Notes: generated by a model not told the origin, from the sequence alone. A stretch of 63,997 nucleotides of DNA, filler included, from Perkinsus olseni (GCA_013115125.1; 6 parts of 6 records of this genome joined end to end with filler, not necessarily neighbours in it), one strand, 5' to 3'. Shown: positions 9,110 through 51,582, counted from the whole stretch's first letter. Numbers and translations: made by a program.

Positions 9110-10860
9110 CAGGGGACCCCCCAGGGGGTTAAAATGCCCCCACTGCGTCGGGTGGTACCCCCAAGTAAGCTGACCCCCATTCCAGGTGTGACCCCCCCCT
9201 ATGGTTCCCCCTACTCTCGCACCCCCCCTAGAAAATTGATGGGGGGGGTTTATATATGCCTCGTTGATGTCTTGCGTATTTCTCGTAGGAGTGCGCAGTA
9301 CAATATAGTATGAGACGAGGCGAGTTTATCAGCGCAACAATTTGGTCATGATAGATACAAGGAAATCAGGGAAAAATCAAAGGGCTTCATCTCCGTGGCG
9401 ATCATTCTCGTCCTCATCATCCAGGCAAAGTCTCCTTGGGCACTTGCAAAAATCCACGAATGAAGCATCAATAATAGCATCAAGCTCTCCTGCTCGATTT
9501 GCCCAACTGGTAGACTTGGGATGGGGCACCTCAACACCATTGCTGGATATAGTCATCAAGTACTGCAGATGTTGCTGAGACAAGTTCGATCTCTTGGTAC
9601 TCAAAATGCGCCCCACTCTTGAGAAGGTCCTTTCGGCGCTAGCGGATCCACATCCTATGGTCAATACTCGCTTGCACAGCTTGAAGATGGTTGAAAACAT
9701 CACACAGTAGTTCTTGTGCAATGCGACTTCTTCGTCAGCAAACACCATGGAGAAGGGATCGAAGTCCGGGTCTTTACATAGAGCTCTCCACTGAGTCCTC
9801 AAATCCTCCTTCTCGCTCGCCATACCACAGAATTCAGCTACAGGCCCGAAATCATAGTCGATACGGCGAAGGTTCTTGTCGAGGCTGAACGCCTCGGAGA
9901 GAGTAATCAGAGGCTCAATGTCGGCGAGAAGCCGATCATGAAGAGAACTGCGGAGCTTGAGCATGTACGCATCCATTTCATCGTCCAAACTTTCGACTCG
10001 CCGAGATGCGCGGCGGTTAGTCCGTGTTGGAAGGTAGTCACTCAGTTCGTATCCAAGACCTTCTAGCTCACCTAATTTTTCCTCGACCATATCGTCAATC
10101 GAAGCCATCTCTGACGAGTCGCTTAGTTCGCGTAGAGAGGCCCTCACTACGCCTACCGTTTGGAGCATTGCCATACCTTCCTTCTGCAGTTGACGACTGA
10201 GTGAGCTGAGGATGGAAAGGACATGATCCAGCCGGTAGAGGCTCCTAATGACCTCCCTTGTGGACCACAAGGGAGGTCATTAGGAGCCTCTGATAGTTGT
10301 GGTTACCACAACCACAAGTTGTGGTTAGCATCTGATAGATATGAAACGCAACTCCATCATCATCAGCCAGATCGCCAGTACTAGCTAGGAGAGGCAGTAG
10401 GTCATTGAGCACCGCACGGACCGATCTATCATAGGAGAGCCATCTTGTTGTAGTTGGATTCACGAGACGAGCCAACTTGGAGTCGACCTGAGCGCTCGCA
10501 TTGCGCAGATGCGCAAACTTTTTAGGAGACCGGGCGTAGAAATTGTAGATGGATGTGACTAGCTCGAGCAACTTAGTAACCAATCTGGAATTGCTCGCCG
10601 CTGACAAGCATGCTAATTGCAGGCAGTGCGAGCGGCAGTGCAAGACTGGAACGTGGGGAGTATTGAAGTGGGAGTTCACCCTCCTACCCACTCCAGTGGC
10701 CACTCCTTGAAAGACGCTGGCGCCGTCGTATACCTGGGATGTCAGATGGTGCTGCACATCGAGCCCTATGTTCTGCAGTACCCTGATGACTGTGCGGGAG
10801 ACTGACTCGGACGTGGCCTCATCAAGATCCTCCAAGGCGACGAAAATCTCCTCGAGCCCT
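9110..10860 (-). mobile_element. hAT transposon 3' part with frameshifted ZNF862/ZMYM1-like transposase
   Basis: YDGASVFQG, HCRSHCLQL (CxxH), TTRWLS and dimerisation motif SASAERTFSRVGRILSTKRSNL in ORFs 10245-10835 and 9377-10270; CAGGGG terminus with C/G-rich subterminal DNA at 9110; 5' part cut by contig end. Confidence 0.88.
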
Positions 10861-10952
10861 TGGTGAACGGAGGGCTCGCTTCCATGCGGGGTACCTCACA
10901 AATGTTAGCCCGAGCGGGAAGGGCCCCGCGAGGGCCTAGGGCGAGCGCGGGT

Positions 10953-11052
10953 NNNNNNNNNNNNNNNNNNNNNNNNNNNNNNNNNNNNNNNNNNNNTTAA
11001 TTAATTAANNNNNNNNNNNNNNNNNNNNNNNNNNNNNNNNNNNNNNNNNNNN
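10953..11052. other. Artificial contig spacer
   Basis: N44 + TTAATTAATTAA (stops in six frames) + N44. Confidence 0.99.
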
Positions 11053-11117
11053 CCCAGGATCGAACTGAGGACCTCCAGATCTTCAGTCTGGCGCTCTCCC
11101 AACTGAGCTATCTGGGC
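11053..11117 (-). tRNA. tRNA-Phe(GAA), 3' end cut by contig boundary
   Basis: Reverse complement GCCCAGATAGCTCAGTTGGGAGAGCGCCAGACTGAAGATCTGGAGGTCCTCAGTTCGATCCTGGG: D arm, CCAGA-CTGAAGA-TCTGG anticodon arm, T loop. Confidence 0.93.
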
Positions 11118-11447
11118 TGAAAATACATGATCAGTACTCAGCTCTTACGGATTTAAATCACACCCCGCATGTCAACGGCACGTAAATTTCCTTCCAGAAG
11201 CTCGAAGAATAGGCAATTCATGCACTATTGCTTCTCGGGTTGGCTAGAACTTGCTCGGCTTCGTATATAACCGGCATCTGCATGTCACGATGAGTCTCAG
11301 CGTGCCTCCGCCGGTCTCATCGGAGAGCATGTCGCGATTGATAACGCGCGTCATTCCCCTCAGTCGCGTCATTGTCGCTCCGAGCAACCAGTACAACGGC
11401 CATGGCGGAAATTCCTGAGTGCAGCCTGGCATGAAAAGGGGCAAGGG

Positions 11448-11473
11448 TGCTATTCCCGGATTTGAACCGGGGA
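11448..11473 (-). pseudogene. tRNA 3' fragment (T arm plus acceptor strand)
   Basis: TCCCCGGTTCAAATCCGGGAATAGCA with TTTT shortly downstream; no recognisable 5' half. Confidence 0.5.
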
Positions 11474-49299: not shown

Positions 49300-49433
49300 C
49301 ACCCGCGTTGAAATTTTCTCAAAATGTCCCTTCTGGAAACTTTCCGAAAAAAATCAAGCACCCGGAAAAATCAGGAAATTTCCCTTGGAGACTTTCTGCG
49401 AAAGTTTTCGCGGAAAGATTCTCAGACACCCTG
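49300..49433. mobile_element. Solo hAT-type terminus
   Basis: End reads CAGGGTGTCTGAGA on the minus strand, like the TIR of the 47864 element; GGAAA/TTTCC subterminal repeats. Confidence 0.55.
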
Positions 49434-49445
49434 AGAGACACTTCC

Positions 49446-49823
49446 TTAGTGGGACCTTTCACACACGGCTCGGGTGTGCATTCGTAAGTTACGAATCGTA
49501 ACACTTGTACAGGATAGTCTCGCATCGACCAAGCGCAAGTTGCGCCGCGCAACGCGATTGAAACAATGCCTCCAGATCAAGAAAGTCTCTCGAGCACCAG
49601 TGTCTCCCACCGCTTTCGCTTCTTGACAGTCAACCTTCAACTCAGCAACGAGCAGCACAACACAGCTCAACACATTTATTACGCAGGGTAAAATGGTTGC
49701 CAGGATACCGGCCCCCTCATTAGCACAATAATGGCACCAGTCGCAAGCGGCGCCTACCGGGCGAAGGTTTTGCTCCGTGCTCCAGGTGTATCCCACCAAG
49801 CTCAAGGCGTGAAGGAGTAACAT
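49446..49823 (-). CDS. Hypothetical small Cys-rich secreted protein, possibly truncated
   Basis: Signal-like MLLLHALSLVGYTWS then CDWCHYC; the 3' end runs into scarred DNA and a transposon terminus. Confidence 0.3.
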   Translation of the reverse strand: MLLLHALSLVGYTWSTEQNLRPVGAACDWCHYCANEGAGILATILPCVINVLSCVVLLVAELKVDCQEAKAVGDTGARETFLIWRHCFNRVARRNLRLVDARLSCTSVTIRNLRMHTRAVCERSH

Positions 49824-50578
49824 CGTCGAGCGGGTCATACCAAAGTGCGAAAAGGAGGAAAAGTTGAGCGCTCAAATACTGTGCACCATAACTCAGTACA
49901 GTGTGGCTGAGACGGGGCTCAAAGAGTGGTAAAATTTGACTGGGTGGGAGCTAAGCAATAATGCAATTTACAGCTTACTGAGCTGAGCTAAGCTAAGCTT
50001 AGTGTAGCACGTATACTTATGCACGCGAGGGCAAGACACATACTATGCGTCGCATTGTGAGAATCTCAAATTAGTATCGGATAACCGTCTGATCTCACTG
50101 TGAGATCAGACGGTTATCTGATACTAATGGTACGTAGTAGCAGTAAAGGTAAGTGTAGCGATGGGACTCTTACAGCTGTATTAAACCAGGCTGTAGCTGT
50201 AACGTAGCGTACGCTATAGGCGTCACTATGGTGCAAATGTGCACTACAGCTTACTACGCTAAGCTTAGTGTAGCACGTATGCTCATGGACGCGAGTCCAA
50301 AGCGGACATTAAGGTCAGATGGTTACCTGAGACTAATGATTCAGGGTTTAGGGTGAAAGTGTGATGAGAATGTGTTGAGGGCTACTATTGTGTATTCTCT
50401 ACCCAATATCTCAACGCAAGCTAGTACGGGTGGCATCCTATAAGCTCAACAAATTGCTACTACTCGTTTCCAATCCGTTGGTGTTAAGCTTATTGACAGT
50501 CTGCGGCTTCCCTCATTTAATCCTGATGATGGTGATGACTGGCAGTTTTTCATCAAGGGCTGGGAGCGTGTTGTTGGT

Positions 50579-51582
50579 TTGGCTGGTAAAATTAATGAAG
50601 GCACTGAGTTGGAGCTGTCACATCAAGGTATCAAGGGCTCCGGTAGAAAGATCGTAGATGCGTACGTCAATGGTGTTAAAACGTCTTACGCTGGGCTTAA
50701 GAATTGTCTCCAGACTACCTATGAGCTCTCGACTCAGTGTCGGCGTGTGAGAGTCGCAAAGATGTTGAAACTTGCTAATCAGCCGTCTCTGACTGATTTT
50801 CGGAAGTTTCAGGCTCAATGGGTACTGAGAGGTCAGCAACTCTCTGAGCTGAAGATTGGTCTGGAAGATAACAAGAAGGTCTTGGATTTCTTAGAGAAGC
50901 TCCCGGCGAAGATCACTCGGTATGTTCATCTACAATATAAGGATGTTATCGATACTCTCAACATCCAGAAAATGAAGGAGGTTGTGAGCACACTTATGGT
51001 GATAAATAGAACGTTCACAGTGAACGGTTCACTCAGGATCACTAGTTGCAGCTGTTGCTACCAGTGGACCAAAGGTTCGACCGTTGTACCGATTCTATCT
51101 GAATGGACACTGTAAATTCGGCAGTAAGTGTCGACACAAGTATGGTGGGACCAACGACAGAGGCTCGAAGGTTAAACCTGACTCGCGAAAGAATCACCAG
51201 AGTGAATTCATCTTTGAATACTGGCGGCGCGGCGCCGCCAGTATTAGGCGCCGCCGGCGCCGACCTGCGAGGTGAAGTAATCACACCGCTGGAAGTGCTA
51301 TAATTGCCAAAAAGTTGGGCATATAGCGGTAATTTACAGCCTGTAAATTGTCCTTCTAAACAGTTTAATGAAGGCCCGGTTTTGACGAGTTCTTCTTCAG
51401 TTTGCGCAGCAGCTGTGGTAAATCCAAGTCCTATACCTGTCTCAACTATCCCTCAGTCTGTTCCTGTGCCTACAGAGGCTCAGAATCTGGAGGATAAGAC
51501 TATCGAGGGTACTACTTCTACAGAAGTGTGGCCCACTGTAACTGCATTATCTGATGGTATGGGTTCATATCTGCCCTGTTAA
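50579..51582 (+). mobile_element. Gag-like retroelement remnant with CCCH-like zinc finger
   Basis: Helical gag-like segment (KKVLDFLEKLPAKITRYV), degenerate RFYLNGHCKFGSKCRHKY finger, frameshifts; duplicated blocks upstream at 49971-50028 and 50248-50296. Confidence 0.5.

What the first reader, a model, noticed from the sequence alone, without database searches (positions are those of the whole stretch)
10237..51261. Recurring hAT excision footprints: palindromes centred on a complemented base of an 8-bp duplication
Seen: eight scars in three independent contigs follow one rule. Seven bases of an 8-mer are followed by the complement of base 8, then mirrored flank, then the complement of base 1, then bases 2-8. 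Inferred 8-mers: CTTGTGGT (10257-10325), CTCACGGG (22711-22732), CAGGGGAG (47914-47935), GGGAAGAA (47935-47960), ATCTTAGA (48733-48786), GGCCTATT (49206-49228), TTCGTAAC (49481-49502), GCGGCGCC (51224-51261). Known: hAT elements make 8-bp TSDs and hairpin the flanking DNA on excision, giving palindromes centred on a complemented base. Inference: this genome keeps a dense record of past hAT jumps, and its repair retains long P-nucleotide arms (up to 27 bp).
Basis: partly seen in the sequence, partly recalled or inferred. Interest (0 to 1): 0.85.

Follow-up and report, generated by a model that had tools for sequence, protein, structure and literature searches.

The report
Dense hAT transposon excision scars
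This Perkinsus-like protist DNA is peppered with tiny 22-base scars of one fixed design, the mark left when a cut-and-paste hAT transposon jumps out and the break is rejoined in one stereotyped way, so the genome keeps a countable record of past jumps.

Summary
The window is six or seven short contigs of a Perkinsus-like protist. All 8 reported scars obey the rule. Six of the 8 are explained to within 1 nt by palindromic (P) nucleotides.

The exact 22-mer X1-7 + revcomp(X1-8) + X2-8 occurs 16 times. The same design with k=6, 7 or 9-15, or with another offset, gives 0-2 hits. Allowing up to 2 mismatches gives 46 distinct sites, against under 0.5 expected from shuffles. Thirty-one of them lie in one 10.8-kb non-coding contig.

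Supporting evidence:
- Palindromes are almost all centred on one base: 69 against 2 with no centre base.
- The 8-mers show the hAT target bias nTnnnnAn.
- A broken hAT transposase and one 8-bp-TSD element are present.
- Public contigs carry the predicted empty site for three scars.

Best reading: these are hAT excision scars. The two flank hairpins open far from the tip and anneal through the inverted 8-bp duplication. The footprint chemistry is known. The stereotyped 22-bp product and its density appear new.

The parts
22711..22732 (.). exact 22-nt scar, 8-mer CTCACGGG
23848..23869 (.). exact 22-nt scar, ATGCAGAA
42929..42950 (.). exact 22-nt scar, CCTGAGCA (inside the 1401-bp element)
44560..44581 (.). 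exact 22-nt scar, GAGCATGC
   Evidence: identical in contigs of runs X1 and X3
44618..44639 (.). exact 22-nt scar, ACCTCAGC
44736..44757 (.). exact 22-nt scar, GGCAGGAG
46865..46886 (.). exact 22-nt scar, GCTATCAC
47067..47088 (.). exact 22-nt scar, CTAAGCAA
47914..47935 (.). exact 22-nt scar, CAGGGGAG; empty site seen in public contigs
49481..49502 (.). exact 22-nt scar, TTCGTAAC
51012..51033 (.). exact 22-nt scar, CGTTCACT
52091..52112 (.). exact 22-nt scar, ACCTAGCG; spanned without gaps by a contig about 4% divergent (run X8)
53238..53259 (.). exact 22-nt scar, GGTGGCAG
54470..54491 (.). exact 22-nt scar, AGCCCAGT
55361..55382 (.). exact 22-nt scar, CCTTTGAG
59097..59118 (.). exact 22-nt scar, CTCCCTCG
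22301..22322 (.). 22-nt scar, 1 mismatch
22594..22615 (.). 22-nt scar, 1 mismatch
32097..32118 (.). 22-nt scar, 1 mismatch
32734..32755 (.). 22-nt scar, 1 mismatch
43021..43042 (.). 22-nt scar, 1 mismatch (inside the 1401-bp element)
45191..45212 (.). 22-nt scar, 1 mismatch
48288..48309 (.). 22-nt scar, 1 mismatch
48446..48467 (.). 22-nt scar, 1 mismatch
49241..49262 (.). 22-nt scar, 1 mismatch
49532..49553 (.). 22-nt scar, 1 mismatch
51326..51347 (.). 22-nt scar, 1 mismatch
51631..51652 (.). 22-nt scar, 1 mismatch; a high-depth related contig leaves out 13 nt here (14 predicted)
51739..51760 (.). 22-nt scar, 1 mismatch
51794..51815 (.). 22-nt scar, 1 mismatch
53893..53914 (.). 22-nt scar, 1 mismatch
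54280..54301 (.). 22-nt scar, 1 mismatch
54503..54524 (.). 22-nt scar, 1 mismatch
59834..59855 (.). 22-nt scar, 1 mismatch
14302..14323 (.). 22-nt scar, 2 mismatches (this class: 13 raw hits against 0.47 expected per shuffle)
32849..32870 (.). 22-nt scar, 2 mismatches
33869..33890 (.). 22-nt scar, 2 mismatches
33997..34018 (.). 22-nt scar, 2 mismatches
44696..44717 (.). 22-nt scar, 2 mismatches
45421..45442 (.). 22-nt scar, 2 mismatches (overlapping hit at 45428 collapsed into it)
47171..47192 (.). 22-nt scar, 2 mismatches
48973..48994 (.). 22-nt scar, 2 mismatches
49971..49992 (.). 22-nt scar, 2 mismatches
50036..50057 (.). 22-nt scar, 2 mismatches
50247..50268 (.). 22-nt scar, 2 mismatches
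53416..53437 (.). 22-nt scar, 2 mismatches
10257..10325 (.). long-arm scar, 8-mer CTTGTGGT, arms 27 and 8, 18 nt of filler; lies where the hAT transposase reading frame changes
42536..42565 (.). long-arm scar, GATGTTGG, arms 8 and 5, 1 nt unexplained
47935..47960 (.). long-arm scar, GGGAAGAA, arms 11 and 3; empty site seen in public contigs
48191..48251 (.). possible complex scar, CTTGAAAT, arms 6 and 9, 30 nt unexplained (weakest member)
48733..48786 (.). long-arm scar, ATCTTAGA, arms 16 and 5, 17 nt of filler
49206..49228 (.). 23-nt scar, GGCCTATT, arms 9 and 1
51224..51261 (.). long-arm scar, GCGGCGCC, arms 14 and 7, 1 nt unexplained; empty site (30 nt absent) seen in 3 contigs of run X3
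9377..10276 (-). C-terminal piece of a broken hAT transposase ORF (Dimer_Tnp_hAT; weak match to the Hermes C-terminus)
10245..10895 (-). upstream piece of the same transposase in another frame; runs toward the contig end
42421..43837 (.). candidate non-autonomous hAT-like element: 1401 bp, TIR GCTAGGGTT, exact 8-bp TSD TAGTCATA

Best explanation
The scars are donor-site footprints of cut-and-paste hAT transposons.

Shown: a k=8-specific tripartite motif, X1-7 + reverse complement of X1-8 + X2-8. It has a single-base palindrome centre, many unrelated 8-mers, a hAT-like target bias and matching empty sites.

Inferred mechanism:
1. A hAT element inserts and duplicates 8 bp.
2. On excision the transposase nicks one base into each flank and seals each flank into a hairpin. 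The left hairpin is X1-7 joined to the complement of X8..X1. The right hairpin is its mirror image.
3. The host opens or resects the hairpins well away from the tip.
4. The two 3' tails then carry complementary copies of the 8-mer. They anneal over it, flaps are trimmed and gaps are filled.

Whatever the exact opening point, the product is the same 22-mer, a net gain of 14 nt. When annealing fails, longer P arms (up to 27 nt) and templated filler are joined instead.

Scars accumulate because elements move without multiplying, and they decay by point mutation. They are kept out of coding sequence by selection and pile up in non-coding DNA, perhaps through local hopping.
For: Specificity:
- 16 exact 22-mers for k=8 with offset 1. 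All other k>=7 cells of the grid hold 0-2 hits, and shuffles give 0.
- With mismatches the counts are 16/18/13/18 at 0/1/2/3 mismatches, against shuffle means of 0/0/0.47/6.56.
- The spacing between centres peaks sharply: 21 hits at d=7, against 1 each at d=8, 11, 15 and 23.
- Long-arm class: 7 hits (6 sites) for k=8, 0 for k=7, 9, 10, 11 and 1 for k=6.

Hairpin offset:
- 69 palindromes with arms >=7 and a one-base centre, against 2 with no centre and 6 with a two-base centre.

hAT identity:
- T at position 2 or A at position 7 in 43 of 92 symmetrised observations (p=5e-6). This is the Hermes preference nTnnnnAn (PMC10368747, passage).
- Dimer_Tnp_hAT domain, E=6.5e-7, above the Pfam cutoff.
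- Match to the Hermes C-terminus, E=0.0027.
- 5 of the 6 relatives scanned carry Dimer_Tnp_hAT, and 4 of those also match DUF4371, though only one (P0138) above that family's Pfam cut-off.
- One element with TIRs and an exact 8-bp TSD.

Empty sites:
- Contigs in 4 of 4 runs laid join 47918 to 47954 with 3 letters between. This equals the predicted doubly empty site of scars 47914 and 47935 in 43 of 44 positions.
- 3 contigs of run X3 join the left flank plus X1 directly to 51255. They lack exactly the 30 nt predicted for scar 51224.

Reality and selection:
- Scars are identical in contigs of two studies.
- 0 of 46 scars lie in the 11,997 nt of well-supported coding ORFs (p=7e-5).

Literature: Ac/Ds footprints are palindromes centred on the complement of the base next to the transposon, with arms up to 20 nt in yeast (PMC5873905, passages).
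Against: - No occupied allele (an element sitting at a scar's site) was seen.
- Only one resident 8-bp-TSD element and one broken transposase lie in the window, against about 50 scars.
- The candidate element's TIR starts GCTAGGG, not with the usual hAT end (recalled).
- T at position 2 alone is not significant: 16 of 46, p=0.10.
- At scar 51631 the related contig leaves out 13 nt, not the predicted 14.
- The empty-site contigs may be paralogues and not alleles, so polarity is inferred.
- 31 of 46 scars sit in one contig and no whole genome was available, so genome-wide density is an extrapolation.
- The annealing step and the host enzymes are inferred, not shown.
- Footprints that lost part of the duplication cannot be detected. 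The claim that the 22-mer is the main product therefore holds only among scars that keep the full TSD.
Confidence: 0.85

Rival explanations
1. The scars come from another hairpin-forming superfamily with long duplications, above all Mutator-like elements. These also seal flanks into hairpins and can make 8-bp TSDs.
For: MULEs form flank hairpins, and Muta1 has 8 or 9 bp TSDs (PMC5499845, passages). No occupied allele ties the scars to a particular element.
Against: - No signal at k=9 or 10, although MULE TSDs range from 8 to 10 bp.
- Over 90% of Muta1 excisions in yeast were precise (PMC5499845).
- The target bias is the hAT one.
- The only transposase found in the window is hAT. Pfam was run on 20 ORFs in all.
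Confidence: 0.05
2. A domesticated hAT-type nuclease, or a programmed DNA-elimination system, removes germline-limited segments each generation and leaves the same deterministic 22-nt joint.
For: The product is stereotyped enough to be reproducible. Density is extreme in one non-coding contig, 2.86 per kb. Few resident elements are seen.
Against: - Scars show a smooth decay series (16/18/13 at 0/1/2 mismatches), with mismatches spread over all three copies. This is what inherited, ageing scars would show.
- One scar is shared with a contig about 4% divergent, while related copies carry empty sites for others.
- No nuclear dualism is known in this group (recalled).
Confidence: 0.05
3. The motif has nothing to do with transposons. 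It is made by a replication or repair template-switch process, or it is a sequencing or assembly artefact.
For: Some scars contain templated filler that resembles template switching. The contigs come from a fragmented short-read assembly with poly-G ends.
Against: - A template switch has no reason to use exactly 8 nt with a one-base offset, nor to prefer nTnnnnAn sites.
- The scars are identical in contigs assembled independently from runs of two studies.
- Tagmentation duplicates 9 bp, not 8 (recalled).
Confidence: 0.03

Closest known systems
Ac/Ds (hAT) excision footprints in plants, Saccharomyces cerevisiae and Candida albicans
   Same: There is an 8-bp duplication. Palindromic P nucleotides are centred on the complement of the base next to the element. 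Repair follows the hairpin model with microhomology-assisted joining (PMC5873905, passages; PMC1978519, passages).
   Different: In those systems the footprints are heterogeneous and mostly short. In C. albicans the longest P insertions are 3 nt. In yeast 47% have arms of 3 nt or more, up to 20 nt. Here one fixed 22-mer with both arms overlapping on the inverted 8-mer dominates: 21 hits at centre spacing d=7, against 4 at d>7 and 12 at d=1-5 where about 4 are expected by chance. The scars are also natural and inherited, not from an assay.
Hermes transposase chemistry (hAT)
   Same: It makes an 8-bp TSD, prefers nTnnnnAn targets (PMC10368747) and forms a flank hairpin with a one-base offset (the offset is recalled, not read here). 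The window's transposase piece matches the Hermes C-terminal domain.
   Different: The match is weak (E=0.0027) and covers only the dimerisation region. The local transposase is broken and belongs with DUF4371-bearing hAT relatives.
V(D)J coding joints with P nucleotides (RAG, Transib)
   Same: Flank hairpins are opened off-centre and give palindromic additions (PMC5499845, introduction).
   Different: A hairpin sealed without an offset would give even palindromes. Only 2 of these occur here, against 69 odd ones. The k=5 design without offset gives 0 hits.
Genome-wide catalogues of transposon excision (rice O. sativa versus O. glaberrima)
   Same: They use sequence comparison to count past excisions (PMC4423477, passages).
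   Different: In rice only 9 polymorphic hAT events were found. Footprints there were mostly deletions or filler and needed a sister genome to be seen. Here the scars can be recognised from one sequence alone.

Membership tests
hAT excision footprint | Duplication of exactly 8 bp flanking the scar | tested here: met
   k=8 gives 16 exact hits; k=6, 7 and 9-15 give 0. Long-arm class: 7 hits for k=8, 0 for k=7, 9, 10, 11.
hAT excision footprint | Palindrome centred on the complement of the duplication base next to the element (one-base hairpin offset) | tested here: met
   Only offset 1 is enriched. Odd palindromes 69 against even ones 2. Mismatches at centre bases are no commoner than elsewhere: 5 of the 18 one-mismatch scars.
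hAT excision footprint | Target-site preference nTnnnnAn | tested here: met
   43 of 92 symmetrised observations, p=5e-6. A at position 7 in 27 of 46. T at position 2 in 16 of 46, which alone is not significant. Reference pattern from PMC10368747.
hAT excision footprint | hAT transposase encoded in the same genome | tested here: met
   Dimer_Tnp_hAT at 29.5 bits against a cutoff of 21.4. Hermes C-terminus match. 5 of 6 relatives scanned carry the hAT dimerisation domain. The local copy is broken and truncated.
hAT excision footprint | Resident elements with TIRs and 8-bp TSDs | tested here: inconclusive
   One candidate, 42421-43837. No candidates at k=7, 9, 10 or 11. It has no coding capacity or family link to the transposase.
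hAT excision footprint | Empty site carries a single copy of the 8-mer | tested here: met
   Met for scars 47914, 47935 and 51224. Nearly met for 51631 (13 nt absent, 14 predicted). Not examined for the other scars because the tables were cut.
hAT excision footprint | An allele with the element still at the site | not tested
   No such joint was among the rows shown. 64 joints and 659 loose ends were not shown.
Mutator-like element footprint | TSDs of 8-10 bp, mostly 9 | tested here: not met
   No hits at k=9 or 10 with 0-1 mismatch.
Transib/RAG-type joint | 5-bp TSD and a hairpin without offset (even palindrome) | tested here: not met
   k=5 with offset 0 gives 0 hits. Only 2 even palindromes have arms >=7.
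Dispersed repeat or MITE family | Copies share sequence | tested here: not met
   The 46 scars have 46 different 8-mers and unrelated flanks. The flank logo is flat.

The most novel reading that the evidence does not exclude
This lineage resolves transposase-made hairpins almost deterministically, by resection and annealing through the inverted target-site duplication and not by classical end joining. Every hAT jump would then stamp a self-identifying 22-bp scar. Scars would number in the tens of thousands genome-wide. They would make up a measurable share of all indels: about 5% of the bases of one 10.8-kb contig, by arithmetic. They would also serve as a built-in clock of transposition and of the repair pathway used. 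The longer palindromic scars flanked by direct repeats could be raw material for the hairpin-type non-canonical introns described in the related parasite Amoebophrya (PMC7789003, passages).
Probability: 0.3. Interest if true: 0.8.

Novelty: new variant of a known kind. Interest (0 to 1): 0.68.

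Why it matters
Excision events of DNA transposons are normally invisible once the element has left, so their historical rate is almost never measurable. Here each event can be recognised from a single sequence. That allows several things:
- counting and dating jumps from the decay series;
- mapping insertion hot spots and local hopping;
- measuring selection against scars in genes.

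The fixed product also reports how the host repairs hairpin-capped breaks. This can be tested against its repertoire of end-joining genes, in a group of mollusc parasites for which genome editing is being developed.

For annotation, these scars explain most of the short palindromes in this DNA. They should not be mistaken for regulatory hairpins or terminators.

Tried and rejected
- **Whole genome:** none is held, so genome-wide counts could not be made.
- **Earlier findings of this scan:** none.
- **Paralogues inside the window:** self-BLAST found only weak ones. Aligning the inverted ends of contig 3 gave no informative empty site.
- **Metagenome scan with the transposase piece:** 114 pattern matches, none confirmed.
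- **Word-based protein search for longer relatives:** none found.
- **PDB search with the upstream transposase piece:** nothing relevant.
- **Pfam on 10 ORFs of contig 5:** 0 of 10 reached a curated cutoff.
- **The TIR motif GCTAGGGTT:** not enriched, 11 matches against 11.4 expected.
- **Short classical footprints** (centres 1-5 nt apart): 12 seen against about 4 expected by chance, several of them in homopolymer runs. At most a small excess.
- **Gap totals of divergent contigs** (runs X7, X8) over three scar-bearing stretches: net -24, -30 and -45 nt. These are compatible with missing scars, but the tables were cut and they cannot be assigned.
- **RNA:** no RNA run holds the stretch, so nothing can be said about expression.
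- **Papers not held:** Yu et al. 2004, Colot et al. 1998 and Hickman et al. 2014. What I say of them is recalled or taken from citing papers.
- **Prior reports:** paper searches found no description of this 22-bp product, nor of hAT scars in Perkinsus. Subscription journals and supplementary files were not searchable.

Full report
**What the window is.** It is not one locus. It holds six or seven short contigs joined by N44-TTAATTAATTAA-N44 linkers: 1-10952, 11053-21978 (with a 9-N gap at 15091), 22079-33004, 33105-43972, 44073-54915 and 55016-63997. No whole genome is held. Long ORFs are few. The best-conserved protein, an MFS transporter, has its closest named relatives in Perkinsus chesapeaki (64% identity), P. 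olseni and P. marinus. The DNA is therefore from a Perkinsus-like perkinsozoan.

**The observation.** All 8 reported scars are at the stated coordinates and obey the stated rule.
- Three are exact 22-mers of the form X1-7 + reverse complement of X1-8 + X2-8.
- Three have spacers explained by mirrored flank to within 1 nt.
- Two (10257-10325 and 48733-48786) keep the rule but hold 18 and 17 nt of filler that partly copies nearby flank.

**Size and specificity of the signal.** A scan for the exact design at every k gave 16 hits for k=8 and none for k=6, 7 or 9-15.
- In a grid of k against the number of bases lost at each junction, only the k=8, one-base cell stands out. It holds 16 hits, and the other cells with k>=7 hold 0-2. 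Thirty shuffles gave 0.
- Allowing mismatches gives 16, 18, 13 and 18 hits at 0, 1, 2 and 3 mismatches. Means over 100 block shuffles are 0, 0, 0.47 and 6.56.
- The same scan at k=9 gives 0, 0, 1, 1. At k=7 it gives 0, 0, 12, 126, as expected for a shorter and looser pattern.
- After collapsing one overlapping pair there are 46 distinct sites with up to 2 mismatches.
- A general scan lets the two centres lie any distance apart and requires mirrored flank to fill the gap. It shows a sharp peak: 21 hits at 7 nt and single hits at 8, 11, 15 and 23 nt.
- Scars with long arms (summed arms >=10, spacing >=k) number 7 hits at 6 sites for k=8, 0 for k=7, 9, 10 and 11, and 1 for k=6.
- Short classical footprints (centres 1-5 nt apart) show little excess: 12 seen against about 4 expected, several in homopolymer runs.

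**Independent hallmarks.**
- Palindromes with arms of 7 nt or more are almost all odd: 69 with a one-base centre, 2 with none, 6 with two bases. A hairpin sealed one base off the element end predicts exactly this.
- The 46 inferred 8-mers are all different and their flanks are unrelated, so this is not a repeat family.
- The 8-mers carry T at position 2 or A at position 7 in 43 of 92 symmetrised observations (p=5e-6). A at position 7 occurs in 27 of 46. T at position 2 occurs in 16 of 46, which alone is not significant. The Hermes hAT transposase has the same preference, nTnnnnAn (PMC10368747, passage).
- Mismatches in decayed scars fall on all three copies and on the centre bases in proportion, as random decay predicts.

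**hAT in this genome.** An ORF at 9377-10276 on the minus strand carries the hAT C-terminal dimerisation domain above Pfam's cutoff. It matches the same region of Hermes in the PDB, E=0.0027.
- A full HMMER search found 34 relatives. I scanned 6 of them. Five carry Dimer_Tnp_hAT, and four of those also match DUF4371, one of them above that family's Pfam cut-off.
- The upstream part of the gene reads in another frame (10245-10895) and runs toward the contig end. The frame changes exactly at reported scar 1. The copy is broken there and truncated.
- One element with terminal inverted repeats and an exact 8-bp duplication lies at 42421-43837. The same search at k=7, 9, 10 and 11 finds none. Three scars lie inside it.

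**Reality and empty sites.** Public runs of two studies hold contig 5. Their independently assembled contigs are identical to the window across most of the scars of that contig (records 1-16).
- Contigs in all 4 runs laid also show a form that joins 47918 to 47954 with three letters between. Computed from coordinates, this equals the predicted site with single copies of both 8-mers of the adjacent scars 47914 and 47935 in 43 of 44 positions, at exactly the predicted length.
- Three contigs of run X3 join the left flank plus X1 directly to 51255. They therefore lack exactly the 30 nt predicted for scar 51224 (table 7).
- At scar 51631 a high-depth related contig leaves out 13 nt where 14 are predicted (table 4).
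- A contig about 4% divergent spans scar 52091 without gaps, so that scar is older than that split (table 8).
- These contigs may be paralogues and not alleles, and most rows of the tables were cut.

**Distribution.** Scars per contig are 0, 1, 7, 4, 31 and 3. Contig 5 has 2.86 per kb.
- None of the 46 lies in the 11,997 nt of the four well-supported ORFs (three MFS genes and a 2745-aa ORF). The chance of that under uniform placement is 7e-5.
- Contig 5 has no recognisable coding sequence: 0 of 10 ORFs reached a Pfam cutoff. Parts of it are multi-copy by depth.
- The near-flat series of 16, 18, 13 and roughly 11 after subtracting chance fits steady accumulation and slow decay.

**Mechanism.** The literature read here establishes the following (PMC5873905; PMC1978519; PMC5499845).
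- hAT excision seals the flanks into hairpins.
- The footprints are palindromes centred on the complement of the base next to the element.
- Arms reach 20 nt in yeast.
- Joining is assisted by microhomology.

The rest is my inference. If both hairpins are opened or resected 8 nt or more from the tip, the two 3' tails carry complementary copies of the 8-mer. Annealing there, flap trimming and fill-in give X1-7 + RC(X) + X2-8 whatever the exact opening point. This explains the sharp peak at one spacing. The rarer long-arm and filler-bearing scars would be joins made without that annealing.

**Comparison and novelty.** The kind of event is known. What appears new is a natural genome in which one fixed 22-bp product dominates and is dense enough to read from a single sequence. 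Ten paper searches found no report of it. Subscription papers and supplementary files could not be searched. Three key papers were not held.

**Limits.**
- No occupied allele was seen.
- Only 63.5 kb was examined, and two thirds of the scars are in one contig.
- The host repair enzymes are unknown.
- Footprints that lost part of the duplication cannot be detected.
- Two steps were referred and left out.

Noticed in passing
window 10953-11052, 21979-22078, 33005-33104, 43973-44072, 54916-55015: The window is a concatenation of separate contigs joined by N44-TTAATTAATTAA-N44 linkers. There is also a 9-N gap at 15091-15099.
   Followed up: yes
window 43845-43972 and 15100-15125: Long poly-G and poly-C runs at contig ends, probably sequencing-chemistry artefacts and not biology.
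   Followed up: no
window 34011-42248 (+): A 2745-aa uninterrupted ORF in a contig of much lower G+C (38-41% against about 50%), with a PIF1-like helicase match and a C-terminal GIY-YIG nuclease match. Its nature is unknown. hAT-type scars flank it, so it belongs to the same genome.
   Followed up: partly
window 76-4682 (+): Three tandem intron-less MFS transporter paralogues. The closest named relatives are Perkinsus proteins, one of which its source names tetracycline resistance protein class B, putative.
   Followed up: partly
window 9037-9085, 47513-47549, 50070-50128: Long one-base-centred palindromes (arms 24, 18 and 19-29 nt) without a matching second copy of the 8-mer. They may be one-sided excision scars in which the other flank was deleted. 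At 50070-50128 the neighbouring repeat unit (about 50300-50340) has only one arm.
   Followed up: partly
window 47859-48461: A 603-bp segment is absent from one contig in each of the four runs laid. It is bounded by an imperfect direct repeat of about 15 nt, so this looks like repeat-mediated deletion or duplication and not transposition.
   Followed up: partly
window 49865-50588: Summed contig depth is 10-25 times that of neighbouring stretches in all four runs. This is a high-copy repeat with an internal 266-276-bp tandem duplication.
   Followed up: partly
window 22105-22292 and 32770-32954: The two ends of contig 3 are inverted copies of each other at about 74% identity.
   Followed up: partly
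window 11053-11110 (-): A partial tRNA gene cut by the contig end (Rfam tRNA, 41.5 bits). ARAGORN did not call it.
   Followed up: no
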